Shown in pieces: positions 3,858 to 39,174 of a stretch of DNA of 64,000 nucleotides. Position numbers and translations under genes: made by a program. Each line of letters begins with the position of its first letter. The stretch's first letter is position 1. The notes below the pieces were generated by a model. The model was not told where the DNA came from. It did no database searches and saw nothing but the letters and a program-made list of their open reading frames with translations. The stretch is from a bacterium (lineage in GTDB: Bacteria > Patescibacteriota > Patescibacteriia > JAGPKW01): positions 303,923 to 367,922 of the forward strand of contig JAJXYN010000009.1 of NCBI GenBank assembly GCA_021780535.1, in the 5' to 3' direction.

Positions 3858-5360
3858 CTATCTGAATCTTTTCTGAGCATTACTTGTTCCTCTTTTGCCA
3901 TGGAATTTACTTTTTCCAATATCTTTTCCTCCTTTTGCGCTTCTTCCCTCATATCTGTCTTTTTTGCCTTCAAATTTATTTTCAAATTGTTTATTGTCTT
4001 TCTTTTTTGGGCTAGTAAAAGTTTTTTTGATACTATATGGTTTTCTATTACTGAATTGTTTTTTAGTATTTGAATCAAATTTTCCAAAATTTCTTGAAGT
4101 TTCTATATAATCATTTTCTACTTGTGAAAAATTTCTATCATTTCTATCATTTCTATAATCTCTATTGCTTCTATCATTATTTTTACCATAAAATCTTGAT
4201 TCTACTGGAGTTGTTGATTTTCTTCTTTCTGGTAAAATACCTGCTTCCAATATTTTTATTTCTTTTTTTATCATTCTTTCTATTCTTCTAATATCAAACT
4301 TTTCTTGGTTTGTAACAAAAGATATTGCCCTACCAGTACTTCCATTTCTACCAGTTCTACCTATTCTATGAACATAATCATTTAAATCATCTGGCAAATC
4401 ATAATTTATCACAATAGATATTTCTTTTACATCAATTCCACGAGCTGCTATGTCTGTTGCTATTAAAACCCTATATTTACCAGATTTGAATCCTGATAAA
4501 GCTTCCTTTCTTTGAAATAATGATCTATCTGAATGTATTTCAGCGGCTTTATGCCCCATTGCATTTACATCACTTGCTAATCTTTTTGCTCCATATCTTG
4601 TTCTAACAAAAACAAGAACTGAACCCTTATTTTCATCTAATACCTTATCAAGCAATTGAACCTTTGCCTCTTTGCTCACTATATACATTTCTTGTTCAAC
4701 AAACTCTGCCGTTGTTCCTGCTGGAGCAATCTCTATTCTAAGAGGAGCTTCCATGTAGGTATTTGCTATCTCAATTATTTCTTGAGGCATTGTGGCTGAA
4801 AATAATAATGTTTGTCTTTCTTCTGGTACCTGCTTCATTATTGCTTTAATTTGTGGAGCAAAACCAACATCAAACATTCTATCTGCTTCATCAAGCACAA
4901 CCATAGAAATATTTTTTAATGTTGTTGTTTTGTGTTCTAAATGGTCTGCCAATCTTCCTGGTGTTGCTATTATTATATTTGGGTTTCTTTTTAACGCTAC
5001 TATTTGATTATTTATAGAGGCTCCACCAATCAAAACAGCTGTTTTTATTTTAAAATTACTTCCTATTTTAGAAATCATTTCATCTACCTGAATAGCAAGT
5101 TCTCTTGTTGGTAATAAAATTAACCCTTGACCACCTACTGTAATCAATTTTTGTAACATTGGTATCCCGAATGCTAATGTTTTACCAGTTCCAGTTTGAG
5201 CAATACCAACAACATCTTTTCCGCTTAAAGCTATTGGAATAACTTGATGTTGTATTGGTGTTGGTTTTACAAATTTATTTTTATTCAAAACAAAAAGTAA
5301 CTCTTTTGAGATATTTAACTCATCGAAACTTAATTCGATTTCTTTCTTTTCAATTTTCAT
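3858..5360 (-). CDS. DEAD-box ATP-dependent RNA helicase with long basic low-complexity C-terminal tail
   Basis: AQTGTGKT (Walker A), PTRELA, DEAD, SAT, HRIGRTGR motifs; ~120-aa R/K/N/D-rich tail. Confidence 0.9.
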   Translation of the reverse strand: MKIEKKEIELSFDELNISKELLFVLNKNKFVKPTPIQHQVIPIALSGKDVVGIAQTGTGKTLAFGIPMLQKLITVGGQGLILLPTRELAIQVDEMISKIGSNFKIKTAVLIGGASINNQIVALKRNPNIIIATPGRLADHLEHKTTTLKNISMVVLDEADRMFDVGFAPQIKAIMKQVPEERQTLLFSATMPQEIIEIANTYMEAPLRIEIAPAGTTAEFVEQEMYIVSKEAKVQLLDKVLDENKGSVLVFVRTRYGAKRLASDVNAMGHKAAEIHSDRSLFQRKEALSGFKSGKYRVLIATDIAARGIDVKEISIVINYDLPDDLNDYVHRIGRTGRNGSTGRAISFVTNQEKFDIRRIERMIKKEIKILEAGILPERRKSTTPVESRFYGKNNDRSNRDYRNDRNDRNFSQVENDYIETSRNFGKFDSNTKKQFSNRKPYSIKKTFTSPKKKDNKQFENKFEGKKDRYEGRSAKGGKDIGKSKFHGKRGTSNAQKRFR

Positions 5361-8587: not shown

Positions 8588-8677
8588 GGAGAGGTGGCTG
8601 AGCGGTTGAAAGCACCACACTGCTAACGTGGCAGGGCCTAAAAACCCTCGCAGGTTCAAATCCTGTCCTCTCCGCCA
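8588..8677 (+). tRNA. tRNA-Ser (anticodon GCU)
   Basis: GGAGAGG acceptor stem pairing CCTCTCC, anticodon loop CUGCUAA, long variable arm, T-loop TTCAAAT, 3' GCCA encoded. Confidence 0.85.
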
Positions 8678-9062
8678 TACAGGGCTACCGAGATGCCTAG
8701 TTTTACTATGATGGCATTGATGAAACCCCATTAAATCACCAGAGTTTGGTGATTTTTTGTTTTTTTATTTCTCTAAGATTGGTCAATAAATTTTTGATAA
8801 ATTTCTCAATTTTCGAATATCTTGAAATGCAGACTAGAAATTAACTAAAAACTCCCATTAAAAAATAATTAAACTTGGTTCGAAACCTGTTTGCTCTGTT
8901 GGTAACTAGAGCTTCGCAAGGTTTTTGGTTATGTTAATATACTAATACCAACGCGATATTTGGTCTTATTTGGTAAATTAACAAAAATAAAATAGATACT
9001 TCTCTATAATCGAAAGGTATCTAAATTTATAAAATCTTAATTTTTAATAATAGAGATTAAGA
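8672..9062 (+). repeat. Flank repeat copy A: last 6 nt of tRNA-Ser plus ~385 bp of downstream sequence, repeated at 31021..31412 (and partially at 36283..36410)
   Basis: Direct comparison: ccgccatacagggctaccgagatgcctagttttactatgatggcatt...ttggttcgaaacct...taatagagattaag present in both places with ~90% identity. Confidence 0.8.
8733..8768 (+). terminator. Rho-independent terminator downstream of tRNA-Ser
   Basis: atcacca-gagtt-tggtgat hairpin followed by ttttttgttttttt; same element recurs in the two other flank copies. Confidence 0.6.
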
Positions 9063-11610: not shown

Positions 11611-11617
11611 ATTTATT

Positions 11618-11929
11618 TTATTTAATACTTAAAAAACTATTTAATAATGATGAATACTTTTTAATAATATCTTTATTTAAAGAATAAAAAACTTTTAAAC
11701 CAACTTTATTTGATTTTAATAAATTAAAATATTTCATCACTCTTAAATGATGAGATATAAGGTTTTGGGGAATATCTAAAAACTCTTGTATTTCACATAC
11801 ACATCTTTCTTTGTTTTTAAGAAAGCATACTGTTTTTAATCTATTTTCTTCTGATATTATTTTTAGAAAATCTATCATTTCCGACATCTCTAAACTAATG
11901 TCTTTACAATTGAAACATTCTTTTTGCAT
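11618..11929 (-). CDS. arsR: ArsR/SmtB-family metalloregulator
   Basis: ERCVCEIQEFL (ELCVCD-type metal site) followed by HTH ...QNLISHHLRVMK. Confidence 0.85.
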   Translation of the reverse strand: MQKECFNCKDISLEMSEMIDFLKIISEENRLKTVCFLKNKERCVCEIQEFLDIPQNLISHHLRVMKYFNLLKSNKVGLKVFYSLNKDIIKKYSSLLNSFLSIK

Positions 11930-11943
11930 ATTATTAAGATAAG

Positions 11944-11965
11944 TATATCAATTTATATTGATATA
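11944..11965. promoter_or_regulatory. Putative ArsR operator (8-bp arms inverted repeat tatatcaa-N6-ttgatata) immediately upstream of arsR
   Basis: Perfect inverted repeat; identical element upstream of the second arsR paralog at 39038..39059. Confidence 0.55.
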
Positions 11966-12002
11966 GTATAACTTATTTTATAAATGGTCAAATGTTTATA
12001 AA

Positions 12003-13304
12003 TTAATTTTTAATTAAATTAATTTTCTTGTTTTTCATTATAAATTTATTCTTAAACATACCCATAAACTGTCTTTTTTCTTCTATAGAACCGTGGTTTA
12101 GTATAAACTTGGCATAATCTACTAAGTCTACCTTTCTATCGTTCATACCTCGTTCTACGTTGTTTATTTTAAGTACTTGTTTTTGTAGATGAGCAAATCT
12201 TTCCACTTCTATTCTTAACTTTTCTTTAATGTCTTCTTCTGGAATATCAATATCTTTTAGAAGTTTTATTATTTGCTCTATAAATTGTTCTTCTCTAATA
12301 TATCTATTACTACACTTAAGATCTTTTGTTCTATTACATCCATAGTAAATATATTTATTTACTCCACCATTTTTTAATTTCTTGTGTTTTTCCACCGCAC
12401 ATAAATTAGAGCTGCAATGACCACAAATCATAGAACCTAGAAAAGCAAACTCTTTTTCTCCATATTTGTAACTAGCTTTTCCTAATTTTATTTTTCTTTG
12501 AACGATTTCAAATAATTCTTTTGTAATTATTGGTTGATGATTTCCTTGGCACCAATTACCACTTCCTGCTGGATATTCAAACCATCCATAGTAAAATGGT
12601 CTACCAAGTAATATGTAGATATTTGCTAAAGACAGATTCTTACCACTTTTTGTTGTGAAATTTTGTTTTACAAACCAACTATGCAAAGCCCTACCAGAAT
12701 AGTTTTCATAAGCTACTTTCTCAAACGCTTGTTTGATTATTGGAGCTCTTTCAGGATCTGGAATTACTACTCCTGTTTTATTTTTTCTTTCATCATTAAG
12801 ATAGCCGATAGGAGCAACTCCTATCCAAAATCCTTTTGATGTTTTAATTTTCAAACCTCTTTTTACATTGATACTTTTATTATCATTCTCAAGTTTAGCC
12901 TGACCACCAAGTACTGCTAATAGAAATTTATCATTTGGTGTATTTTTAAAGTTTTGATTATACGTTCTTATTTCTTTAAGATAACTACCGTCTATTAAAT
13001 CTATAATACTTCCTAAATCTCCAGCATTTCTTGAAAGTCTATCAGTATTCCATGTTAGAATACCTTCGAATTTACCTTGTCTTAATTCTTTTATCATTTC
13101 ATTAAATATCGGCCTCTGACTTGAAGCTTTTGCAGAATGAGCCTCTTTTTTTATGCAAACCACATTAAGATTATCTCTTTCTGCTATTAAACTCATTTCA
13201 TTTTCTTGAGCTTCTATTGAAAGAGCCTGTTTTTCATCTTCTTCACTAGATTTTCTAGCATAAAGACAGTATCTAATTTCTGACGAAAACCCTTTGTTTT
13301 CCAT
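12003..13304 (-). CDS. Large serine recombinase (resolvase N-domain + recombinase domain + zinc ribbon)
   Basis: YARKSS (catalytic Ser region), RLSRN, recombinase-domain body and C-terminal CGHCSS...YYGC zinc ribbon. Confidence 0.85.
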   Translation of the reverse strand: MENKGFSSEIRYCLYARKSSEEDEKQALSIEAQENEMSLIAERDNLNVVCIKKEAHSAKASSQRPIFNEMIKELRQGKFEGILTWNTDRLSRNAGDLGSIIDLIDGSYLKEIRTYNQNFKNTPNDKFLLAVLGGQAKLENDNKSINVKRGLKIKTSKGFWIGVAPIGYLNDERKNKTGVVIPDPERAPIIKQAFEKVAYENYSGRALHSWFVKQNFTTKSGKNLSLANIYILLGRPFYYGWFEYPAGSGNWCQGNHQPIITKELFEIVQRKIKLGKASYKYGEKEFAFLGSMICGHCSSNLCAVEKHKKLKNGGVNKYIYYGCNRTKDLKCSNRYIREEQFIEQIIKLLKDIDIPEEDIKEKLRIEVERFAHLQKQVLKINNVERGMNDRKVDLVDYAKFILNHGSIEEKRQFMGMFKNKFIMKNKKINLIKN

Positions 13305-19773: not shown

Positions 19774-20115
19774 ATGAAAAAATTATTATCAATATTAGTT
19801 ATTCCAGCATTTTTACTTTCATCATCTGCATTTGCTCTTGATGCTACAACTCCAATTAGTACTACTCCATCAACTACTGTAACATCAACACAAACAACCC
19901 CTGCTATAAATGAAAAAACTTTAAAAACAGATTTGCTAAAGCTAAAGAAAGCTGGAGTATTAATTAAAAAGGATGTTAAAAAGGATTTGTCTAAAACAAA
20001 GAAACAAAACATAAAAAGCAAGCAAAAGAAAGAAACCGTAGCTAAACAAAAAGCATTAGCTGCAAAAAAAACTTCAAAAAAGATAAATACGCCCACTATA
20101 AAAATAACTAAATAA
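19774..20115 (+). CDS. Secreted T-rich/K-rich small protein
   Basis: Signal peptide; TTPISTTPSTTVTSTQTTP then lysine-rich tail. Confidence 0.45.
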   Translation: MKKLLSILVIPAFLLSSSAFALDATTPISTTPSTTVTSTQTTPAINEKTLKTDLLKLKKAGVLIKKDVKKDLSKTKKQNIKSKQKKETVAKQKALAAKKTSKKINTPTIKITK

Positions 20116-20122
20116 TATAAAA

Positions 20123-20146
20123 ACACCGAAATGGTGTTTTTATATT
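20123..20146 (+). terminator. Rho-independent terminator
   Basis: acacc-gaaat-ggtgt hairpin + ttttta. Confidence 0.55.
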
Positions 20147-20249
20147 ACCTTACTAATTTACAAGAAGTAGACAAACAGTAGATAAATATGCTTTACTTTT
20201 GCCTTTTTTCAAGTTAATATAATAATACAATTTAATTTGCCTAAACTAA

Positions 20250-20400
20250 TACCAACAGGTGTTGGCATGGCATAAAATCCATAACGAACAAGCTAGGTCT
20301 TCTGACTAGTATTTTTCGTTATGGTCTACATTCGAAAGGATGTAGGGCTAAACCTCGAAAGAGGCATGCCAAAATACTTTGTCGGGAGGCCTTTTTGTTT
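20250..20400 (+). ncRNA. Candidate structured RNA (unclassified): closing helix ggcatg/catgcc enclosing a 10-bp helix with nested hairpin, a ctacat/atgtag hairpin with tcGAAAgg loop and a cctc-GAAA-gagg hairpin
   Basis: Multi-helix arrangement with two GAAA tetraloops, local GC ~42% in a 25% background, no ORF, ~40 nt upstream of a small gene. Confidence 0.35.
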
Positions 20401-20438
20401 CCTGATATTGAAAATCCATAACTAACTAATACAATAAA

Positions 20439-20672
20439 ATGTCTCTAAAATATTGTGCTTTATGCAAAAGAAATGTAGAGCCAAAAAGAGCAATAGGAAT
20501 TGGTACTTTGTTACTTGTTCTATGTACTTTTGGTTTCTGGTTGTTACTTATACCACTTTATCGCAAAAAGTGTCCTATATGTAAAACAACTTTGTTAAGT
20601 GGTATTGAAAATAGTATTGAAGATAAAAAAGTCGATGAAATTCAGATAGTTGAAACTTCTATTGATAAATAA
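20439..20672 (+). CDS. Small membrane protein with split zinc ribbon
   Basis: CALCK...TM hairpin...CPICK. Confidence 0.4.
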   Translation: MSLKYCALCKRNVEPKRAIGIGTLLLVLCTFGFWLLLIPLYRKKCPICKTTLLSGIENSIEDKKVDEIQIVETSIDK

Positions 20673-21816: not shown

Positions 21817-23247
21817 TTAGTCTATTATGTAAATACGAGGCGGTCCTTTGTATTCAGTAATAAAGTATATACAAGCTATTGTTAAAGCATCGACTAAATC
21901 ATCATGTTTAGTGCTTCCAAAATCTAATATTTGATTTATTAATTCTTTATTACAACCCTTAGGAAATCTTATAATACCTTCTTTTATATGATTAGAAATC
22001 ATATTCAATCTAGTTCTTTTATCCTTACCACCAAGACTATAAGATACAACACCATCTACACCATCCTTTTTCAATTGTTGTTCTATTGCTTGTTGATAGC
22101 CATTATTTTCTATAATTATTTTAGTTCTTCTTTCGTTATTTTCTTTAATATCTTTTAGTGTTTGTATTGTCTCAGGAAACTTCATTTTCTTATTTATAAT
22201 CTCAGGCATTACATAAATAATATTTTTATGACCATATTCTCCAACATCTTCTTGATAACATTTTATTGTAACTATTCCAGTATAATCAGCTGTATCTCTT
22301 TGAGATATAGCAGGATCTACTCCTGTTATATAAGTTAGGAATTGTCCGTCTCTATGAGTTATTTCATCATAATAATGTATCCATTCAGGCTCTATAATTG
22401 CATCATCATCAGGAACTATTTTTAACATATACTCTCTTTCAAATATTCTGTCATTAAAAACTTTCCTTCTCTCAAATTCTATTGCATCAGTATTAGGATA
22501 TTTTGATAACCAGTTTATAGTTCCATCATCTTCCATTAATTTTATTTCTTTATAAATGCCATCAATTTCATTAAGTTCTAATTTATCTTTCATTCTCATT
22601 AAAAGTGAATCTCTGTGGAGTAAATTACCAACAAAAATCATTCTAGTATTAATATCTCCAGTTGGAATAATTTCACCAGTAATCCAATCAAACATCTTAT
22701 TTCTACTTTCCATAGTTCTAACAGATTCTGTATCTTCAATATCATCACAAATAATAATTTGAGGCCTATTACTTTTATGTCTAATACCACGAATAGATTG
22801 TTCCATGGAAACTGCCATTATTTTTGCATCATATTCTGGAATTAAAATACATCTATTATTCCATTCTTTGTCTGAAATTGAATAACTATAATCTTCTTTT
22901 AACAACCTATTTTCTTCAAGTTCACGACGAATATTTATTAAATGTTGTCGCGCTTGTTTTTCTGTTTTTCCAAGAACAAGAATAAATTTAATATTATTAT
23001 TCAATATAGACCATATAGGGAATGAGGTAGTGATAATAGTTGATTTAGCAGAACCACGAAAAGCTACTATTACTAAATTTCTTATACTATCATCCTTAAT
23101 TAAACCAAATAATTCTTTATGAAAAGGTGCTGATTTTAACTTTAGATAATGTCTAAAATAAATTCCAAAAAATACCCTATTATCAAGTTTAGAGGCATAA
23201 ATTCTGGAAACTTTATTTTTAATTATATTGTCAAAATCAACACTCAT
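21817..23247 (-). CDS. Phage terminase large subunit
   Basis: VIVAFRGSAKST Walker-A-like ATPase motif; C-terminal RNaseH-like nuclease motif DDLVDALTIA. Confidence 0.8.
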   Translation of the reverse strand: MSVDFDNIIKNKVSRIYASKLDNRVFFGIYFRHYLKLKSAPFHKELFGLIKDDSIRNLVIVAFRGSAKSTIITTSFPIWSILNNNIKFILVLGKTEKQARQHLINIRRELEENRLLKEDYSYSISDKEWNNRCILIPEYDAKIMAVSMEQSIRGIRHKSNRPQIIICDDIEDTESVRTMESRNKMFDWITGEIIPTGDINTRMIFVGNLLHRDSLLMRMKDKLELNEIDGIYKEIKLMEDDGTINWLSKYPNTDAIEFERRKVFNDRIFEREYMLKIVPDDDAIIEPEWIHYYDEITHRDGQFLTYITGVDPAISQRDTADYTGIVTIKCYQEDVGEYGHKNIIYVMPEIINKKMKFPETIQTLKDIKENNERRTKIIIENNGYQQAIEQQLKKDGVDGVVSYSLGGKDKRTRLNMISNHIKEGIIRFPKGCNKELINQILDFGSTKHDDLVDALTIACIYFITEYKGPPRIYIID

Positions 23248-23249
23248 TT

Positions 23250-23618
23250 TTATAAATTATTTAATGATTCTTTTAATTCTTCTTTTTCTTCATCAGATAG
23301 TTCAATTTCATTCTTAATCTTTCCTGATAACTGAACTTTAGTTCTGAATTTCTCATGTCTATTCTTTAACCAGAATATTACAGCTGTAAGTTCATTATCT
23401 TTAATGTTTTGTATTAAAGTACTTTCTGCCATATCATTTATCAATTCAGAACCTCTTTGGATTGCATCATCAACTTTAGATTTCAATTCAAAATCTTTCT
23501 CTATCCAACGATAAAAAGTTTGTCTTGTTATTCCTATCTTCTTACAAGCAATTTCTATAATAGGAGCTTTCTCTAATTCTGAAATTAATCTATCTGTGAT
23601 AGCCTTAGTTTTTTTCAT
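23250..23618 (-). CDS. Phage terminase small subunit-like HTH protein
   Basis: IGITRQTFYRWIEKD HTH and AVIFWLKNRHEKFR motif typical of TerS; immediately upstream of TerL. Confidence 0.55.
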   Translation of the reverse strand: MKKTKAITDRLISELEKAPIIEIACKKIGITRQTFYRWIEKDFELKSKVDDAIQRGSELINDMAESTLIQNIKDNELTAVIFWLKNRHEKFRTKVQLSGKIKNEIELSDEEKEELKESLNNL

Positions 23619-24388
23619 AATTTTTCAGCTTTTAAATTAGTTAACTTTTCCCAACGTTTAATAATAACTTCACAATAATGTGGGTCTTTTTCTATTGATA
23701 TACACCTTCTTTTTGTATGCTCTGAGGCAATAATAGTAGAACCGCTGCCACCAAAACAATCATAAACAATGTCATTTATCCTTGTGCTGTTTAAAATAAT
23801 CTTCCTAAGTAATCCTATCGGTTTCATTGTTGGATGAAGACTACTACTATTTGGTTTTGGATAATATAAAACTGTTTTATCTTTTGAACCTATAAATTCA
23901 TGTTTTCCAAACCATCCATAAAGTATTAATTCATGCATGGGAAGCCAATCATTTCTTGTTATGGTGCTGTGATTCTTAACCCAAATTAATAATTGAGCTG
24001 TTTTAATTTTTAACTCATCAAATGCTTGTTTTAAGGCAAACAACATTTTGTCTGAATTAAAAACATAAATTAAGTTTTTATCTTCTAATTTTGATAAAAC
24101 TGGTTCAATATATTTCTTTGTAAATTCTACATATTCTTTATCTGTAGATATGTTATCGTTCTCAATAATTCTATCTACTTTTACATCAGCAAATCCTTTC
24201 TTATTTTCTACATAAGAAATACCATATGGAGGATCTGTAATTATTGCTTTTATCTTATTTTCTCCAATGACTTTATTTACAAAGTCATTATCTAAACTAC
24301 TTCCACATCCTAGAATATGAGAACCTAATCTAAAGATTTCTCCATTTTTAATTAAGTTTTTTTGCTTTTTGTCCTGTATATTTTTCAT
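23615..24388 (-). CDS. DNA methyltransferase (N6-adenine/N4-cytosine, beta class)
   Basis: IITDPPYGI (motif IV) followed by C-terminal DCFGGSGST (motif I). Confidence 0.85.
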   Translation of the reverse strand: MKNIQDKKQKNLIKNGEIFRLGSHILGCGSSLDNDFVNKVIGENKIKAIITDPPYGISYVENKKGFADVKVDRIIENDNISTDKEYVEFTKKYIEPVLSKLEDKNLIYVFNSDKMLFALKQAFDELKIKTAQLLIWVKNHSTITRNDWLPMHELILYGWFGKHEFIGSKDKTVLYYPKPNSSSLHPTMKPIGLLRKIILNSTRINDIVYDCFGGSGSTIIASEHTKRRCISIEKDPHYCEVIIKRWEKLTNLKAEKL

Positions 24389-25634
24389 ATCTTTTTATTA
24401 TTAATTTTATAAATTTAGGTTGTTTTTCAACTAGAAAACACCTTCTTTTTAATTGAATAGCACTTAGTAAAGATGAGCCCGATCCTCCGAATAAATCCAA
24501 TATTATGTCATTAACTTTTGTGCATCTTCTAAATGGTTTTTCATTTAAATCTAGTGGCTTGCTAGTTGGATGTTCATAATCACTAGCTGGTAATCTTTTT
24601 GAAAGCCAAATATTAAATAGATCTAATATGTCATCAGTTAATCCATTTCCAGTTCCTATTTCTTTATTTAATATTTCATTAAAATTTTTTATATCTTTAT
24701 TTATAAATGGTCTACCTCTAGTTCCGTATACACAAGATTCCATAACCTTGTTAAAAGCACATGAGACAACGGGATTTGCATTGTTTTTAATCCATAAACA
24801 AACTCTTTTATTTTCAATTCCATTTTGTTTAAAAGTGTCTTGCATTAATCCTATATATTTTTCATCACACCAATAAAAAACGTGGCAATCTTTCTCGCAA
24901 ACAGATAATCCATTTTTTATTGTTTTATCTATAAATTCAGAATATTCTTTATCACTTAAATTATCATCTATTTTGTCTCCATATTTTTTCTTTCCCCCTA
25001 CGCCTTTTTCATAATCAAGATTAATATTATATGGGGGATCACAGTATAAAATTCCAACCTTATTTTCACCAAGAAGTTTTTTCACAATATTTATATCAGT
25101 AGAGTCTCCATATATGAGACGATTATTACCAAGCTCAAAAATGTCACCGTATTCTATATCCAATAACTCCATTTCTTCATCTATATTTTCTAGTTCTTTT
25201 TCTTCATCAAAATTATCATCCTCTATTTCAAGAACATCGTCCCATATAGAGCTTAAATCTTTATCATCAAAACCAGATTCAATAAGCAAATCCATATCTA
25301 AGTCTTTTAATAAATCCCAATCCCATGATCCTGTATTTCTATTAAGTCTTAAGCAAAGTTCTTTTTCCTTACTTAAATCTTGGATATTCAAATACACAAC
25401 AGGAATTGTTTTATATCCAAGACTTTTAGCAATACTCCATCTAAAATGACCACCTAGAATTATATTTTTTCTATCTTTATACCCATTACAAATTACTGGA
25501 TCTATAAGACCGAACTTTTTTATACTATCTGTTAAATCAGAAGTTTCTTTTTTCGACCATTTACGAGGGTTAACCTCAATTGATTTTAAATCATTGACAT
25601 TAACCTCAACGATTTTTATGTTTTCTTTATCCAT
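24348..25634 (-). CDS. ParB-like nuclease domain fused to DNA methyltransferase
   Basis: N-terminal ParB-N motif (IEVNPRKWSKKE...GLIDPV), LYCDPPYNI, DLFGGSGSS. Confidence 0.85.
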   Translation of the reverse strand: MDKENIKIVEVNVNDLKSIEVNPRKWSKKETSDLTDSIKKFGLIDPVICNGYKDRKNIILGGHFRWSIAKSLGYKTIPVVYLNIQDLSKEKELCLRLNRNTGSWDWDLLKDLDMDLLIESGFDDKDLSSIWDDVLEIEDDNFDEEKELENIDEEMELLDIEYGDIFELGNNRLIYGDSTDINIVKKLLGENKVGILYCDPPYNINLDYEKGVGGKKKYGDKIDDNLSDKEYSEFIDKTIKNGLSVCEKDCHVFYWCDEKYIGLMQDTFKQNGIENKRVCLWIKNNANPVVSCAFNKVMESCVYGTRGRPFINKDIKNFNEILNKEIGTGNGLTDDILDLFNIWLSKRLPASDYEHPTSKPLDLNEKPFRRCTKVNDIILDLFGGSGSSLLSAIQLKRRCFLVEKQPKFIKLIIKRYEKYTGQKAKKLN

Positions 25635-27338: not shown

Positions 27339-27986
27339 ATGACAAAAAATGAGGAATTTTTACTTAAGAAAATAAAGGATAACAAATTAGACGGATTATC
27401 TCTTAGAGAAATATCTGATTTAATACCAAATAGTGCTGGAAATGCAGGAACAGCACAATATTATTTAGAAAAACTTCAAAAAAATGGTTATATAATTTGG
27501 AATAGAACAAGAAAGAAAATTGTTTTACTTGGTGAAGTTGTTAAACAAAACATAAAATCAAATGTTCTTAGGCTCCCTTTTTATGGATATGCTAATTGTG
27601 GAGAAGCTTTATCTTTTGCAGATAATACCATTGAAAGATTTATAGAAGTATCATCTCCAATTTTAAAAAACAAAACTCAAGATGATCTTTTTATAGTTCA
27701 AGCAGATGGAGATTCTATGAATTTGCAGGAAATTAATGGTAAAAAAATAGAAAGTGGTGACTTTATTATTATTGATAAAAGTGAAATCAATGATTTGAAA
27801 AATGGTGATTGTGTTCTATCAATAATAAATGGAATGGCTAATATAAAAATATATAATAAAAGTGTTAAAGATGATTATATAAAATTGGAACCAAATTCCT
27901 CAAACAAGAATCATTTTCCGATATTTATTCATGAAGATGGAAATTTCACTATAGCAGGAAAGATTTTAGAAATAATAAAAAAATAA
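27339..27986 (+). CDS. LexA/CI-like repressor (HTH + S24 peptidase domain)
   Basis: N-terminal winged HTH (LSLREISDLIP...YYLEKLQKNGYI); GDSM serine motif and downstream Lys in C-terminal S24 domain. Confidence 0.75.
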   Translation: MTKNEEFLLKKIKDNKLDGLSLREISDLIPNSAGNAGTAQYYLEKLQKNGYIIWNRTRKKIVLLGEVVKQNIKSNVLRLPFYGYANCGEALSFADNTIERFIEVSSPILKNKTQDDLFIVQADGDSMNLQEINGKKIESGDFIIIDKSEINDLKNGDCVLSIINGMANIKIYNKSVKDDYIKLEPNSSNKNHFPIFIHEDGNFTIAGKILEIIKK

Positions 27987-30906: not shown

Positions 30907-31020
30907 TATGTGTAACATTTGTAACATTTTTTTGCGACCGAGATGCCTCATTTTTCTCCAAAATCCTACCCCCAAAACCCCTTATGGTGCTTGTATGTGT
31001 GGGTACCAGACCGAGGCTTC
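30907..31020 (+). repeat. ~115-bp repeat unit (tgtgtaacatttgtaacattt...gcgACCGAGATGCCtcatttttctcc...cttcccgcc), second copy at 35475..35629
   Basis: ~85% identity between copies; contains a second instance of the accgagatgcc motif also present just downstream of tRNA-Ser. Confidence 0.7.
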
Positions 31021-31412
31021 CCGCCATACAGGGCTACCGAGATGCCTAGTTTTACTATGATGGCATTGAGTTATCCCAGAAAAATCATCAGAAATGGTGA
31101 TTTTTTGTTTTTTTATTTCTCTAAGGTTGGTCAATAAATTTTTTATAAATTTCTCAATTTTCGAATACCTTGAAATGCAGATTATAAATTAATGAAAATC
31201 CCTCATTAATAAACAATTAAATTTGGTTCGAAACCTAGATGCTCTGTTGGTAACTAGAGCTTCGCAAGGTTTTTGGTTATGTTAACATACTAATACCAAC
31301 GCGACATTTCGGTCTTATTTGGTAAATTAACAAAAATAAAAAAAGATACTTCTCTATAATCGAAAGGCGTCTAAATTATAAAATCTTAATTTTTAATAAT
31401 AGAGATTAAGAA
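31021..31412 (+). repeat. Flank repeat copy B (partial tRNA-Ser 3' end ccgcca + downstream flank)
   Basis: See copy A; terminator hairpin variant atcatca-gaaa-tggtgat. Confidence 0.8.
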
Positions 31413-32896: not shown

Positions 32897-34198
32897 TTAA
32901 TTTTTTATTAAACTAATCTTCTTATTTTTCATTACAAACTTATTCTTAAACATACCCATAAACTGTCTTTTTTCTTCTATAGAACCGTGATTTAATATAA
33001 ACTTGGCATAATCTACCAAGTCTACTTTTCTATCGTTCATACCTCTTTCTACATTGTTTATTTTTAGTACTTGTTTTTGTAGATGAGCAAATCTTTCTAC
33101 TTCTATTCTTAACTTTTCTTTAATGTCTTCTTCGGGAATATCAATATCTTTTAGAAGCTTTACTATTTGCTCTATAAATTGTTCTTCTCTAATATATCTA
33201 TTACTACATTTAAGATCTTTTGTTCTATTACATCCATAGTAAATATATTTATTTACTCCACCATTTTTTAATTTCTTATGTTTTTCTACTGCACATAAAT
33301 TAGAACTACAATGGCCACAAATCATAGACCCTAAGAATGCAAATTCTTTTTCTCCATATCTATAACTAGCTTTTCCTAATTTTATTTTTCTTTGAACTAT
33401 TTCAAAGAGTTCTTTTGTAATTATTGGTTGATGATTTCCTTGGCACCAATTACCACTTCCTGCTGGATATTCAAACCATCCATAATAAAAAGGCCTTCCA
33501 AGTAGTATATAGATATTTGCTAAGGATAAATTCTTACCACTTTTTGTCGTGAAATTTTGCTTTACAAACCAACTATGTAAAGCTCTACCAGAATAGTTTT
33601 CATAAGCCACCTTCTCAAATGCTTGTTTAATTATTGGGGCTCTTTCAGTATCTGGAATTACTACTCCTGTTTTATTTTTTCTTTCATCATTAAGATATCC
33701 AATAGGCGCAACTCCTATCCAAAATCCTTTTGATGTTTTAATTTTAAGACCTCTTTTTACATTGATACTTTTATTATCATTCTCAAGTTTAGCCTGACCG
33801 CCAAGTACAGCTAATAGAAATTTATCATTCGGAGTATTTTTAAAGTTTTGATTATATGTTCTTATTTCTTTCAGGTAACTACTATCTATCAGGTCTATTA
33901 TACTTCCTAAATCCCCGGCATTTCTTGAAAGTCTATCAGTATTCCATGTTAGAATACCTTCAAATTTTCCTTGTCTTAATTCTTTTATCATTTCATTAAA
34001 TACTGGTCTTTGACTTGAAGCTTTTGCAGAATGGGCTTCTTTTTTTATACAAACTACATTTAAACTATCTCTTTCTGCTATTAAACTCATTTCATTCTCT
34101 TGAGCTTCTATCGAAAGAGCTTGTTTTTCGTCTTCTTCACTAGATTTTCTAGCATAAAGACAATATCTAATTTCTGATGAAAACCCTTTGTTTTCCAT
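32897..34198 (-). CDS. Large serine recombinase (second copy)
   Basis: 8 aa differences from 12003..13304 over 433 aa. Confidence 0.85.
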   Translation of the reverse strand: MENKGFSSEIRYCLYARKSSEEDEKQALSIEAQENEMSLIAERDSLNVVCIKKEAHSAKASSQRPVFNEMIKELRQGKFEGILTWNTDRLSRNAGDLGSIIDLIDSSYLKEIRTYNQNFKNTPNDKFLLAVLGGQAKLENDNKSINVKRGLKIKTSKGFWIGVAPIGYLNDERKNKTGVVIPDTERAPIIKQAFEKVAYENYSGRALHSWFVKQNFTTKSGKNLSLANIYILLGRPFYYGWFEYPAGSGNWCQGNHQPIITKELFEIVQRKIKLGKASYRYGEKEFAFLGSMICGHCSSNLCAVEKHKKLKNGGVNKYIYYGCNRTKDLKCSNRYIREEQFIEQIVKLLKDIDIPEEDIKEKLRIEVERFAHLQKQVLKINNVERGMNDRKVDLVDYAKFILNHGSIEEKRQFMGMFKNKFVMKNKKISLIKN

Positions 34199-35307: not shown

Positions 35308-35703
35308 ACGTACCTCCTTGTCCTATTTTGGACTCTATTACTATAACATAAATAGTACATTTTGTCAATTATTTTTGCCATCTTTACTTATTATTTTTAT
35401 TTAATACTATTCAATAAAATATAAACATTTTTGAATATGTAGTGTCGCATATGTCGCATTAAATTTGTCTTTTTTTGTGTAACATTTGTAACATTTTACA
35501 TCCTATGTACTGTCTAATTTGTCCAATTTTTACCTCTGCGACCGAGATGCATCATTTTTCTCCAAAACCCTACTCTTAAAACCCCTTATGGTACTTGTAT
35601 GTATGAGTACCAAACCGAGACTTCCCGCCTTCGCTCGCTATAGCGAGCTTCAGCGGATAAATCCGCAAGGATATTATTCAAAGAAAATACTCCATTAAAA
35701 AAT

Positions 35704-38708: not shown

Positions 38709-39026
38709 TTATTTTAATTTAATATTTAAAAAATTATTTAATAATGATGAATACTTTTTAATAATATTTTTATTTAAAGAATAAAAAACTTTTAAACCAA
38801 TTTTATTTGATTTTAATAAATTAAAATCTTTCATTACTTTTAAATGGTGTGATACTAAGTTTTGTGGAATATTTAAAAATTCTTTTATTTCACATACACA
38901 TTTTTCATCATCTATGAGAAAACATATTATTTTTAATCTACTTTCCTCTGATATTATTTTTAGAAAATCTATCATCTCTGACATTTCTAAACTTGTGTTT
39001 TTACAATTGAAATATTCTTTTTTCAT
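38709..39026 (-). CDS. arsR: ArsR/SmtB-family metalloregulator (paralog, ~80% identical to 11618..11929)
   Basis: EKCVCEIKEFL and HTH QNLVSHHLKVMK. Confidence 0.85.
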   Translation of the reverse strand: MKKEYFNCKNTSLEMSEMIDFLKIISEESRLKIICFLIDDEKCVCEIKEFLNIPQNLVSHHLKVMKDFNLLKSNKIGLKVFYSLNKNIIKKYSSLLNNFLNIKLK

Positions 39027-39037
39027 ATTATTAAAAC

Positions 39038-39059
39038 TATATCAATTTATATTGATATA
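39038..39059. promoter_or_regulatory. Putative ArsR operator (tatatcaa-N6-ttgatata), identical to 11944..11965
   Basis: Perfect inverted repeat immediately upstream of arsR start. Confidence 0.55.
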
Positions 39060-39174
39060 GTACTACTTATTTTTTTCTGAGTCAAATATTAATTAACTTA
39101 TAAGTAAATATAATACTTTTAAATAAATACTTTATGAGTTAATATATGAATATGACTTATAATATACTAATAAC

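What the first reader, a model, noticed from the sequence alone, without database searches (positions are those of the whole stretch)
20250..20400. Candidate structured non-coding RNA in the 20.1–20.4 kb intergenic region
About 145 nt with no ORF and GC far above background, foldable into a closed multi-helix structure.
- A closing helix ggcatg/catgcc encloses the rest.
- Inside is a perfect 10-bp helix ccataacgaa/ttcgttatgg enclosing a ctaggtc/gactag hairpin.
- There is also a ctacat/atgtag hairpin with a tcGAAAgg loop and a cctc-GAAA-gagg hairpin.
- Two GNRA-type tetraloops and a ctaaacc stretch are reminiscent of riboswitch aptamers (for example GEMM-like receptor/tetraloop pairs), but I cannot assign a class.
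- It sits between a terminator (20123..20146) and a small zinc-ribbon membrane gene (20439).
Basis: seen in the sequence. Interest (0 to 1): 0.6.

Follow-up and report, generated by a model that had tools for sequence, protein, structure and literature searches.

The report
LOOT RNA leader with hidden terminator
The intergenic region encodes a member of the catalogued but functionally unexplained LOOT RNA family: a roughly 160-nt structured RNA with its own promoter, inside an integrated mobile element, that can fold either as a hairpin or as a transcription terminator just ahead of a variable cargo gene.

Summary
The structured RNA is real, but it is a known family. Rfam's LOOT model (RF03000) matches window 20238-20354 (+) at 67.4 bits (threshold 46.4).

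The "closing helix" GGCAUG/CAUGCC is not conserved.

About 130 further well-parsed homologues (63 sequences from genomes incl. the window, 70 from metagenomes) add four points not in the Rfam model:
- **Terminator-like helix.** The P3 apical loop (20289-20314) pairs with a 3' tail (20371-20398) followed by a U-tract. This helix covaries strongly and cannot coexist in full with P3.
- **Tetraloop and receptor.** P1 carries CCUAAA/CAUGG, the strongest GAAA-tetraloop receptor variant in a published set of 98. The P5 loop is GAAA in 132 of 133 sequences.
- **Downstream gene.** The next ORF is co-oriented in 106 of 114 loci and starts about 32 nt after the U-tract. The 59 proteins scanned hit 35 Pfam families.
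- **Genomic setting.** Loci lie mostly in Patescibacteria, often near a serine recombinase.

Best reading: a promoter-proximal leader acting as a conditional terminator for mobile-element cargo genes, with an unknown trigger. Identity is near certain; the mechanism is inferred.

The parts
20218..20223 (+). Probable -10 box TATAAT of the LOOT promoter (inferred)
   Evidence: In 81 aligned upstream regions, TATAAT-like hexamers sit about 18-28 nt before UGCC. The promoter scan offered TTGCCT-16-AATAAT at 20199-20226. No transcript data.
20227..20236 (+). Conserved ACAATTTAAT motif just 5' of P1. It is either the 5' end of the RNA or an operator; its role is unknown.
   Evidence: ACAATTYAAT recurs directly upstream of UGCC, or 5-6 nt further, in most of the 81 loci.
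20238..20272 (+). P1/P2 hairpin. P1 is UGCC/GGCA, with internal loop UAAA (20242-45) / CAU (20266-68), giving the receptor CCUAAA/CAUGG. P2 is 20246-20265.
   Evidence: Rfam LOOT alignment. P2 is 94% paired, with 5 of 6 pairs compensated. Receptor variant data from PMC11381326 Suppl. Table 1.
20273..20278 (+). A-rich linker UAAAAU
   Evidence: AAAA is conserved in the Rfam consensus. It was fixed by my search pattern in the homologues.
20279..20288 (+). P3 5' strand, CCAUAACGAA
   Evidence: Perfect 10 bp with 20315-20324. P3 is a perfect 9-12 bp helix in the 63 + 70 well-parsed homologues (selected partly on P3 length), with 61 + 61 distinct sequences.
20289..20314 (+). P3 apical loop. It holds either the P4 hairpin (20293-20309) or the 5' arm of the long-range terminator helix.
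   Evidence: duplexfold gives -25.6 kcal/mol with 20371-20398. The homologous columns are 95.8% paired, with 9 of 14 pairs compensated.
20315..20324 (+). P3 3' strand, UUCGUUAUGG
20326..20345 (+). P5 hairpin with GAAA tetraloop (20334-20337)
   Evidence: P5 is 94% paired, with 8 of 8 pairs compensated. The loop is GAAA in 62/63 and 70/70 sequences.
20346..20370 (+). P6 variant: GGC/GCC base, internal loop UAAA/CAU (a second receptor, GCUAAA/CAUGC), then CCUC-GAAA-GAGG
   Evidence: Folds. The second receptor-like motif is unique to the window among 77 sequences. GCUAAA_CAUGC has a published dG of -11.39 kcal/mol.
20371..20400 (+). 3' arm of the long-range helix (to about 20398) overlapping the U-tract UUUUUGUUU (20392-20400). 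Together they form a terminator-like end of the RNA.
   Evidence: The similarity block shared with the related contig L001 ends exactly at 20400.
20411..20426 (+). Direct copy (15 of 16 nt) of linker + P3 5' strand (AAAATCCATAACTAAC), 12 nt before the start codon. Unexplained.
   Evidence: one mismatch; the other hits are at chance level. The same feature occurs in about 8 of 63 loci.
20439..20672 (+). Co-oriented downstream gene: a 77-aa protein with CxxC...CxxC and a transmembrane segment. It occupies the variable 'cargo' position.
   Evidence: It has a homologue only in L041. The N-terminal part is replaced in the syntenic contig L001.

Best explanation
**Identity (shown).** Window 20238-20400 (+) encodes a LOOT RNA (Rfam RF03000).

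**Anatomy (shown by comparison with about 130 homologues).** The parts, in order, are:
- its own promoter;
- a 5' hairpin P1/P2 carrying an 11-nt-type GAAA-tetraloop receptor;
- an A-rich linker;
- a hypervariable but always perfect 9-12 bp helix, P3, capped by P4;
- P5 with an invariant GAAA loop;
- P6;
- a 3' tail complementary to the whole P3 apical loop, running into a U-tract.

**Mechanism (inferred).** The RNA is the leader of the co-oriented gene that starts a few tens of nt downstream, and it works as a conditional intrinsic terminator.
- While the RNA is being made, it folds as P1/P2 + P3/P4 + P5 + P6.
- Once the tail emerges it can pair with the P3 loop, giving a median 18-bp helix next to the U-tract. 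It can do so in full only if P3 opens, because the linkers are 0 and 3 nt.
- P3/P4 therefore acts as an anti-terminator and the long-range helix as the terminator.
- The balance decides between a terminated RNA of about 160 nt and read-through into the cargo gene.
- The P5 GAAA loop probably docks into the P1 receptor and clamps the base of P3.
- The signal that shifts the balance is unknown.

**Setting.** The element belongs to integrated mobile elements of Patescibacteria-type genomes, which often carry a large serine recombinase and sometimes terminase genes.
For: **Identity**
- LOOT scores 67.4 bits against a gathering score of 46.4, with E = 1e-12 over the full model.
- All 18 pattern-found loci that I tested also pass Rfam's threshold, at 47-106 bits.

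**Long-range helix**
- It is 95.8% paired in 48 sequences, and 9 of 14 pairs show changes on both sides (for example CG 21 / GC 20 at one pair). Slid controls give 37-48%.
- RNAalifold predicts it independently.
- duplexfold gives -26.2 kcal/mol for cognate loop and tail, -17.2 for non-cognate and -14.0 for shuffled. Independent metagenome sequences give -25.8 against -17.9.
- The U-tract columns are invariant or nearly so.
- Strand-specific G.U pairs (UG in 40/48 and 37/48 sequences) place the structure on the + strand RNA.

**P3**
- It is perfect in the well-parsed sequences, with 61 distinct versions among 63. Non-cognate strands pair at only 52%.

**Exclusivity of P3 and the long-range helix**
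- The long-range helix has a median of 18 bp, with linkers of 0 and 3 nt.
- Predicted energies are close: -52.1 against -55.1 kcal/mol on average. For the window they are -53.4 against -58.9, and the nascent RNA up to 20370 folds into the P3 form.

**Leader role**
- The nearest downstream ORF is co-oriented in 59/63 loci and in 47/51 of the metagenome set.
- The median start is 176 nt from the RNA's 5' end.
- The median gap from U-tract to start codon is 32 nt, which leaves little room for a separate promoter.

**Tetraloop and receptor**
- CCUAAA_CAUGG has the best dG (-11.77 kcal/mol) and the lowest Mg1/2 (0.21 mM) of 98 receptor variants.
- The P5 loop is GAAA in 62/63 and 70/70 sequences.

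**Mobile-element setting**
- A serine recombinase lies within the stored stretch of DNA (8 kb or less) in 33 genome loci, mostly upstream and divergent, and in 26/70 metagenome loci.
- The window copy lies between CCGCC(A) repeats at a tRNA-Ser.
Against: - There is no transcript, end-mapping or termination data, so every functional step is inferred.
- The terminator is atypical. Its arms are about 65-80 nt apart, and the consensus terminator scan did not flag it because that scan allows loops of only 3-8 nt.
- Rfam types LOOT as a stand-alone sRNA.
- P3 should form first during transcription, so what ever favours termination is unknown.
- The exclusivity of P3 and the long helix rests on a geometric argument, not a 3D model. 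A partial pseudoknot (shortened P3 plus part of the long helix) is not excluded.
- Downstream ORF starts were called mechanically.
- 8 of 114 loci have a convergent neighbour.
- Homologues were collected with a pattern that fixes the P1 receptor and the AAAA linker, so conservation of those parts is not independently shown here. It is shown only by the upper-case positions of the Rfam consensus.
Confidence: 0.6

Rival explanations
1. A stand-alone, trans-acting small RNA, as Rfam types it. The long-range helix plus U-tract is simply its terminator and final structure, P3 is a folding intermediate or part of a pseudoknot, and the neighbouring gene is unrelated.
For: - Rfam type is 'Gene; sRNA'.
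- It has its own promoter-like motifs and a terminator-like end.
- The long-helix form is the predicted minimum-energy state. It would expose 10-16 nt of the P3 3' strand as a possible seed.
- P3 is hypervariable, like a targeting sequence.
Against: - The downstream ORF is co-oriented in 106 of 114 loci, with only about 32 nt between U-tract and start codon. An independent sRNA gene would not need this.
- No second target site was found in the 64-kb window apart from the adjacent copy.
Confidence: 0.22
2. An RNA-based immunity or autoregulation device of the mobile element, working like the phage P4 CI RNA or P1 c4 RNA (comparison from my own knowledge). The terminated RNA exposes the P3 3' strand. 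That strand pairs with the identical P3 5' sequence in nascent leaders, or with its copy at the cargo gene's start. This enforces termination or blocks translation, with P3 as the specificity determinant.
For: - P3 identity is only 0.42 even between RNAs that are at least 90% identical elsewhere.
- Genome pairs with two copies share the long helix but differ in P3 (L008/L037 and L035/L054; weakly L050/L080).
- A direct copy of linker + P3 5' strand sits just before the start codon in the window and in about 8 of 63 loci. Non-cognate controls give 0.3%.
- The P3 3' strand is specifically complementary to the downstream region in 11/61 loci, where about 3 are expected.
- The location is next to integrase genes.
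Against: - Most loci have no downstream copy.
- Only 7 nt of the window's copy can pair with the P3 3' strand; the rest of the identity lies in the unpaired A-linker.
- Invasion in trans would have to beat very fast P3 formation in cis.
- There are no expression data.
Confidence: 0.1
3. A metabolite- or second-messenger-binding riboswitch aptamer, with the long helix as its expression platform.
For: - A tetraloop/receptor pair and an anti-terminator/terminator layout are typical of riboswitches.
- It sits consistently in the 5' leader position.
Against: - No riboswitch family matched at E <= 1.
- The 59 downstream proteins hit 35 Pfam families, with none in more than 3 loci and no shared pathway.
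- Few nucleotides are conserved outside the receptor, the linker and the GAAA loop.
Confidence: 0.06
4. A DNA-level feature: an attachment or recombination site for the neighbouring serine recombinase, or a decayed repeat, with the helices being inverted repeats in DNA.
For: - There is a frequent association with serine recombinase genes.
- A 16-nt direct repeat lies 137 nt apart in the window.
Against: - Pairing relies on G.U pairs that would be C.A on the other strand.
- GNRA loops and a GAAA receptor are RNA motifs.
- Distance to the recombinase ranges from 100 to 5,000 nt and more, and orientation varies.
- In the window the recombinase genes are 7 and 12.5 kb away, and the element ends are at about 8.68 and 31.02 kb, not at 20.3 kb.
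Confidence: 0.02

Closest known systems
LOOT RNA motif (Rfam RF03000; from Weinberg et al. 2017, PMC5737381)
   Same: - The full-length model matches above threshold.
- P1-P5, the receptor-type internal loop, the AAAA linker and the GAAA loop all align.
   Different: - P6 is replaced by a longer hairpin with a second receptor motif and a GAAA loop, which aligned poorly. This is unique among 77 sequences.
- The Rfam model stops at P6. It lacks the 3' tail and long-range helix, the promoter and the leader context described here.
- The papers I could search say nothing about function.
GAAA tetraloop / 11-nt receptor tertiary contact (canonical CCUAAG/UAUGG)
   Same: - P1 carries CCUAAA/CAUGG and P6 carries GCUAAA/CAUGC.
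- Both are measured high-affinity variants, at -11.77 and -11.39 kcal/mol.
- A GAAA loop is nearly invariant in P5.
   Different: - The closing G.U is replaced by A/C.
- Docking within LOOT has not been tested.
Transcription-attenuating leaders and riboswitch expression platforms (terminator versus anti-terminator)
   Same: - Two covarying, mutually exclusive pairings, one of them abutting a U-tract.
- It sits at the promoter-proximal position ahead of a co-oriented gene.
   Different: - The 5' arm of the terminator sits in the apical loop of the anti-terminator hairpin, with two hairpins inside the terminator loop.
- The regulated genes are unrelated to one another.
- No ligand or leader peptide is evident.
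Phage P4 CI RNA and P1/P7 c4 antisense RNAs (own knowledge, not checked here)
   Same: - A small RNA encoded in the leader of the unit it may control.
- A sequence triplet is present: an upstream copy, a complementary segment and a downstream copy near the start codon.
- It sits near the integration and immunity genes of a mobile element.
   Different: - The downstream copy is present in only about 13% of loci.
- There is no sequence or structure similarity to those RNAs.
- Processing by RNase P is not indicated.
c-di-GMP-I (GEMM) riboswitch
   Same: It uses a tetraloop/receptor contact between neighbouring hairpins (own knowledge).
   Different: - There was no Rfam match at E <= 1.
- The helix layout is different.
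- The downstream genes show no link to c-di-GMP.

Membership tests
LOOT RNA (RF03000) | Covariance-model score at or above the curated gathering score | tested here: met
   67.4 bits against 46.4, E = 1e-12, model positions 1-121 of 121.
LOOT RNA (RF03000) | Helices P1-P5 in order, with the conserved CCUAAAC...GCAUGG internal loop, the AAAA linker and a GAAA loop on P5 | tested here: met
   Alignment to the consensus and folds.
LOOT RNA (RF03000) | Simple terminal hairpin P6 with a GNRA loop | tested here: inconclusive
   The model's P6 aligned with low posterior probability. The window has a longer P6 with an internal loop, though it still carries a GAAA loop.
11-nt-type GAAA tetraloop receptor | Receptor sequence with measured GAAA binding | tested here: met
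   CCUAAA_CAUGG and GCUAAA_CAUGC are listed with dG of -11.77 and -11.39 kcal/mol.
11-nt-type GAAA tetraloop receptor | The GAAA loop actually docks into the receptor within this RNA | not testable with these tools
   This needs chemical probing or a 3D structure. The only support is the near-invariance of GAAA in P5.
Intrinsic (Rho-independent) terminator | G+C-rich stem immediately followed by a U-tract | tested here: met
   GUCGGGAGGCC pairs with GGUCUUCUGAC and is followed by UUUUUGUUU. The stem and U-tract are conserved.
Intrinsic (Rho-independent) terminator | Short hairpin loop, and demonstrated termination | tested here: not met
   The arms are about 65-80 nt apart, and the consensus scan did not report it. 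Termination itself could not be tested.
Riboswitch | Coherent set of regulated genes pointing to a ligand | tested here: not met
   35 Pfam families among 59 downstream proteins, with a maximum of 3 per family.
Riboswitch | Match to a known aptamer class | tested here: not met
   Only LOOT matched credibly at E <= 1 in 20100-20480; the four other hits were far below their gathering scores and none was a riboswitch family.
P4 CI / P1 c4-type antisense immunity RNA | A complementary segment flanked by direct target copies, one of them at the regulated gene's start | tested here: inconclusive
   Present in the window and in about 8 of 63 loci, but absent in most.

The most novel reading that the evidence does not exclude
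LOOT is a programmable RNA switch used by mobile elements of Patescibacteria. The constant scaffold is the receptor hairpin, the GAAA hairpin and the long-range terminator. The hypervariable P3 helix is an address that sets which copy, or which incoming relative, is terminated or silenced. This would be an RNA-only immunity or cargo-gating system for a major, poorly studied bacterial lineage.

A narrower variant applies to the window copy. With two receptors and two GAAA loops, it might assemble into dimers or higher-order RNA-only complexes.
Probability: 0.15. Interest if true: 0.8.

Novelty: new member of a known kind. Interest (0 to 1): 0.5.

Why it matters
LOOT has been an orphan motif with no proposed function in any paper I could search. 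The analysis here makes it testable in four ways.
- **Host range.** It places LOOT in a defined setting. Of the 76 LOOT-bearing genome loci, 56 carry Patescibacteria/CPR names.
- **Genomic context.** The loci lie in integrated elements, often with serine recombinases.
- **Architecture.** It gives a concrete layout: a promoter, an anti-terminator and terminator pair, and a strong tetraloop receptor.
- **Gene association.** It shows a near-universal link to a co-oriented but functionally variable downstream gene.

If the switch model holds, LOOT would be a general gate for accessory genes in mobile elements of a lineage where almost nothing is known about gene regulation.

Tried and rejected
It is specific to the window, is a by-product of two receptor copies, and is not chosen by the fold.
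- **GEMM or any other Rfam riboswitch.** No match.
- **Other LOOT or receptor-hairpin copies in the window.** None.
- **Further copies of the P3 sequence in the window.** Only the adjacent one.
- **The ACAATTTAAT motif elsewhere in the window.** Chance level.
- **P3 3' strand as a general antisense to the downstream start region.** Cognate -7.2 against non-cognate -6.0 kcal/mol, p = 0.10, with only a minority of loci.
- **Shared downstream gene family.** None.
- **Type I toxin-antitoxin reading.** The small membrane protein downstream suggested it, but it does not generalise because the downstream genes are diverse.
- **Attachment-site reading.** Rejected on strand-specific G.U pairs and on the mapped element ends.
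- **MAFFT alignment of P3.** It misaligned the helix, giving 68.7% paired. I used per-sequence parsing instead.
- **Covariance model.** I did not build one.
- **Literature.** The main text of the discovery paper does not discuss LOOT and no supplements are held. The only other mention concerns cross-covariation.
- **IMG/VR scan with the strict pattern.** It gave one contig only, L001, which is syntenic with the window.

Full report
**1. What is at the coordinates**

Rfam release 15 finds one non-tRNA RNA in the 64-kb window. It is LOOT (RF03000) at 20238-20354 on the + strand, at 67.4 bits against a gathering score of 46.4, covering the full model. A permissive rescan of 20100-20480 gives E = 1e-12 for LOOT and nothing else credible.

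The region folds much better than shuffled sequence. On the + strand z = -6.95, with 0 of 200 shuffles as good. On the - strand z = -4.56. GC is 0.41 against 0.19-0.38 (mostly 0.22-0.32) in the other 100-nt windows between 19000 and 21500.

**2.

Four of the five are right.
- P3 is 20279-20288 with 20315-20324, a perfect 10 bp.
- P4 lies inside it at 20293-20309.
- P5 is 20326-20345, with its GAAA loop at 20334-20337.
- The CCUC-GAAA-GAGG hairpin forms the top of P6.

The 'closing helix' is wrong.
- CAUGCC closes P6 with GGC at 20346-20348.
- CAUGCC is absent from all 76 other homologues.

**3. Homologues**

The conserved pattern TGCCTAAAC-N8-30-GCATGGCANAAAA found sequences in three collections.
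- IMG/VR gave one contig, L001.
- GTDB species-representative genomes gave 82 stretches.

My estimate of chance hits in the genome collection is about 6, and four loci clearly lack the rest of the RNA. Of the 76 LOOT-bearing genome loci, 56 carry Patescibacteria/CPR names. Several lie on contigs of 0.7-1.2 Mb, so they are chromosomal.

All 18 loci that I passed to Rfam's own model score above threshold, at 47-106 bits. These are therefore LOOT RNAs and not merely pattern matches.

One caveat applies throughout. The pattern fixes the P1 receptor and the AAAA linker, so I cannot claim their conservation from these sets. The Rfam consensus shows them in upper case.

**4. Structure beyond the Rfam model**

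*The long-range helix.* In every homologue the apical loop of P3 is complementary to a tail that follows P6 and runs into a U-rich tract.
- On a 48-sequence MAFFT alignment this 14-pair helix is 95.8% paired. Nine pairs show changes on both sides (one pair is CG 21, GC 20, AU 2, UA 2). Slid controls give 37-48%.
- RNAalifold predicts the same helix without being told.
- Loop-tail duplex energies are -26.2 kcal/mol for cognate pairs, -17.2 for non-cognate and -14.0 for shuffled loops.
- In 70 independent metagenome sequences the values are -25.8 against -17.9.
- Frequent U.G pairs at fixed positions (40/48 and 37/48) would be mismatches on the other strand. The structure is therefore RNA, on the + strand.
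- In the window the helix joins 20289-20314 to 20371-20398 (-25.6 kcal/mol). The U-tract is 20392-20400.

*P3.* It is a perfect 9-12 bp helix in the well-parsed sequences, which were selected partly on P3 length (63 from the genome scan, 70 from metagenomes).
- There are 61 distinct sequences in each set, and all four Watson-Crick pair types occur at most positions.
- Non-cognate strands pair at 52%.

*P2 and P5.* Both are 94% paired, with compensatory changes in 5 of 6 and 8 of 8 pairs.

**5. Two folds that exclude each other**

The long helix uses nearly the whole P3 loop. Its median is 18 bp, and the unpaired linkers to the P3 strands are 0 and 3 nt. An 18-bp A-form helix is about 50 Å long, whereas the ends of a hairpin loop are held about 20 Å apart. 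I therefore infer that complete P3 and the complete long helix cannot coexist. This is a geometric argument, and a partial pseudoknot is not excluded.

Predicted energies of the two states are close.
- On average they are -52.1 kcal/mol (P3 form, tail free) against -55.1 (P3 open).
- For the window they are -53.4 against -58.9, with a minimum free energy of -62.8 that is of the long-helix type.
- The transcript up to 20370 folds into the P3 form at -52.0.

Both pairings are maintained by covariation, and one of them abuts a U-tract. This is the layout of an anti-terminator and terminator pair.

**6. Tetraloop and receptor**

The P1 internal loop reads CCUAAA/CAUGG. In the supplementary table of PMC11381326 this exact variant has the most favourable dG (-11.77 kcal/mol) and the lowest Mg1/2 (0.21 mM) of 98 variants of the canonical CCUAAG/UAUGG receptor.

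The P5 loop was not part of my search pattern. It is GAAA in 62/63 and 70/70 sequences. P6 loops are mostly GNRA: GCAA 24, GAAA 13. A P5-to-P1 docking that brackets the base of P3 is the obvious inference, but it is untested.

The window copy is unusual. Its P6 carries a second receptor, GCUAAA/CAUGC (published dG -11.39), directly below a GAAA loop. No other sequence among 77 has this.

**7. Context**

*Upstream.* TATAAT-like hexamers sit about 18-28 nt before UGCC, followed by a conserved ACAATTYAAT motif. In the window, a terminator-like hairpin at 20110-20150 separates the unit from the upstream gene.

*Downstream.*
- The nearest ORF of at least 60 aa is co-oriented in 59 of 63 genome loci and 47 of 51 metagenome loci.
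- The median start is 176 nt from the RNA's 5' end in both sets.
- The median gap between U-tract and first possible start codon is 32 nt, which is too short for a separate promoter in most loci.
- The 59 downstream proteins hit 35 Pfam families, none in more than three loci. They include DNA methylases, DUF805, staphylococcal-type nucleases, zinc-ribbon membrane proteins and a DnaB-like helicase.

*Recurrent neighbours.*
- A large serine recombinase occurs in 33 genome loci within the stored stretch of DNA (8 kb or less). It is upstream in 28 of 33 and mostly divergent. It also occurs in 26/70 metagenome loci.
- A DUF5659 protein occurs in 12 loci.
- DNA methylases and terminase subunits occur in 5-9 loci each.

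**8. The window's element**

- tRNA-Ser ends at 8677 with CCGCCA.
- The same CCGCC(A), followed by homologous sequence, recurs at 31021 and 35624.
- The 370 nt after 8672 and after 31021 are 79-87% identical.

This indicates two elements integrated in tandem. The first spans about 8678-31026 and contains:
- the recombinase (12003-13304);
- a P-type ATPase;
- an ECF sigma factor;
- LOOT;
- TerL and TerS (21817-23618);
- two methylases;
- an S24/LexA-type repressor (27339-27986).

The IMG/VR contig L001 is syntenic with it. Its similarity block around LOOT runs over 20164-20400 and stops exactly at the end of the U-tract. It resumes at 20634, inside the 3' end of the next gene, so the first gene after LOOT has been partly swapped.

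**9. Mechanism**

*Shown.* The evidence establishes family membership, both covarying pairings, the U-tract, the receptor motif and GAAA loop, the leader position, the diversity of downstream genes, and the mobile-element setting.

*Inferred.* The RNA is transcribed from its own promoter. P3/P4 forms first and delays or prevents the long helix. The long helix terminates transcription at the U-tract. The ratio of the two folds sets expression of the cargo gene. The tetraloop docks into the receptor and stabilises the P3 form.

*Unknown.* The trigger has not been identified. A specific metabolite is unlikely, given the unrelated downstream genes.

*Unexplained observations that point to an RNA-addressed mechanism.*
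- P3 is hypervariable even between close relatives. Identity is 0.42 for pairs at least 90% identical elsewhere, and it stays nearly flat across all levels of relatedness.
- In about 13% of loci a direct copy of linker + P3 5' strand lies just before the start codon. In the window it is 20411-20426, matching 15 of 16 nt.

**10. Verdict**

The finding is real and well explained as a member of a known family, so its novelty as an object is low. The added value is a testable architecture and context for an orphan RNA. No expression or biochemical evidence was available, and the mechanistic part should be read as a hypothesis.

Noticed in passing
window 8588-8677, 8672-9044, 30933-31394, 35537-35629: tRNA-Ser is followed by two tandem integrated elements. 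CCGCC(A) recurs at 8672, 31021 and 35624. The left ends after 8672 and 31021 are homologous over 370 nt (79-87% identical), and the right ends before 31025 and 35629 are homologous over 93 nt (89% identical).
   Followed up: partly
window 12003-13304 (-) and 32897-34198 (-): Two copies of a 433-aa large serine recombinase (Resolvase + Recombinase + Zn_ribbon_recom domains). They are 94% identical over the first 300 nt, and each is about 83% identical to the one on IMG/VR contig L001.
   Followed up: partly
window 11616-12026 and 38713-39120: A second repeated module: an ArsR-type HTH gene plus an upstream region containing the palindrome TATATCAATTTATATTGATATA. The two copies are 75-88% identical. 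The second copy is not next to a recombinase.
   Followed up: no
window 20411-20426: A 16-nt direct copy (one mismatch) of the LOOT linker + P3 5' strand lies 12 nt before the start codon of the next gene. About 8 of 63 other loci have the same arrangement, usually 0-3 nt before ATG. No explanation fits all loci.
   Followed up: partly
window 20346-20370: P6 of this copy contains a second GAAA-receptor motif (GCUAAA/CAUGC) under a GAAA loop. This is unique among 77 LOOT sequences, and it could allow contacts between molecules.
   Followed up: partly
window 20227-20236 and 81 homologous loci: A conserved ACAATTYAAT motif lies between the probable -10 box and P1. In the window it forms the near-palindrome CAATT-T-AATTG. 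It could be an operator or the 5' end of the RNA.
   Followed up: partly
L051 888-927 and 1786-1825: Two identical truncated copies consist of promoter, P1/P2 receptor hairpin, A-linker and a P3-like 5' strand, and run straight into an ORF. The rest of LOOT is missing, as if the part between the direct repeats were absent. A third, complete copy at 3861 has a disrupted P3.
   Followed up: no
window 21817-25634 (-) and 27339-27986 (+): TerL, TerS, two N6/N4 DNA methylases (one fused to ParB_N) and an S24/LexA-type repressor are present, but no portal, capsid or tail gene was recognised in the 22-kb element. It may be a satellite-like or defective prophage.
   Followed up: partly
LOOT loci L003 and 11 others: A DUF5659 protein of about 83 aa lies upstream of LOOT on the opposite strand in 11 of the 12 loci that carry it. 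It is the most frequent neighbour after the recombinase.
   Followed up: partly
L002, L005, L017, L032, L040, L071: tRNA genes, and in L032 a tmRNA gene, lie within a few kb of LOOT. This fits integration of the host elements at such genes.
   Followed up: no
window 20110-20150: A long A+T-rich hairpin (18 pairs) right after the stop codon of ORF 19774-20115 looks like a bidirectional terminator. It would insulate the LOOT unit from the upstream gene.
   Followed up: no
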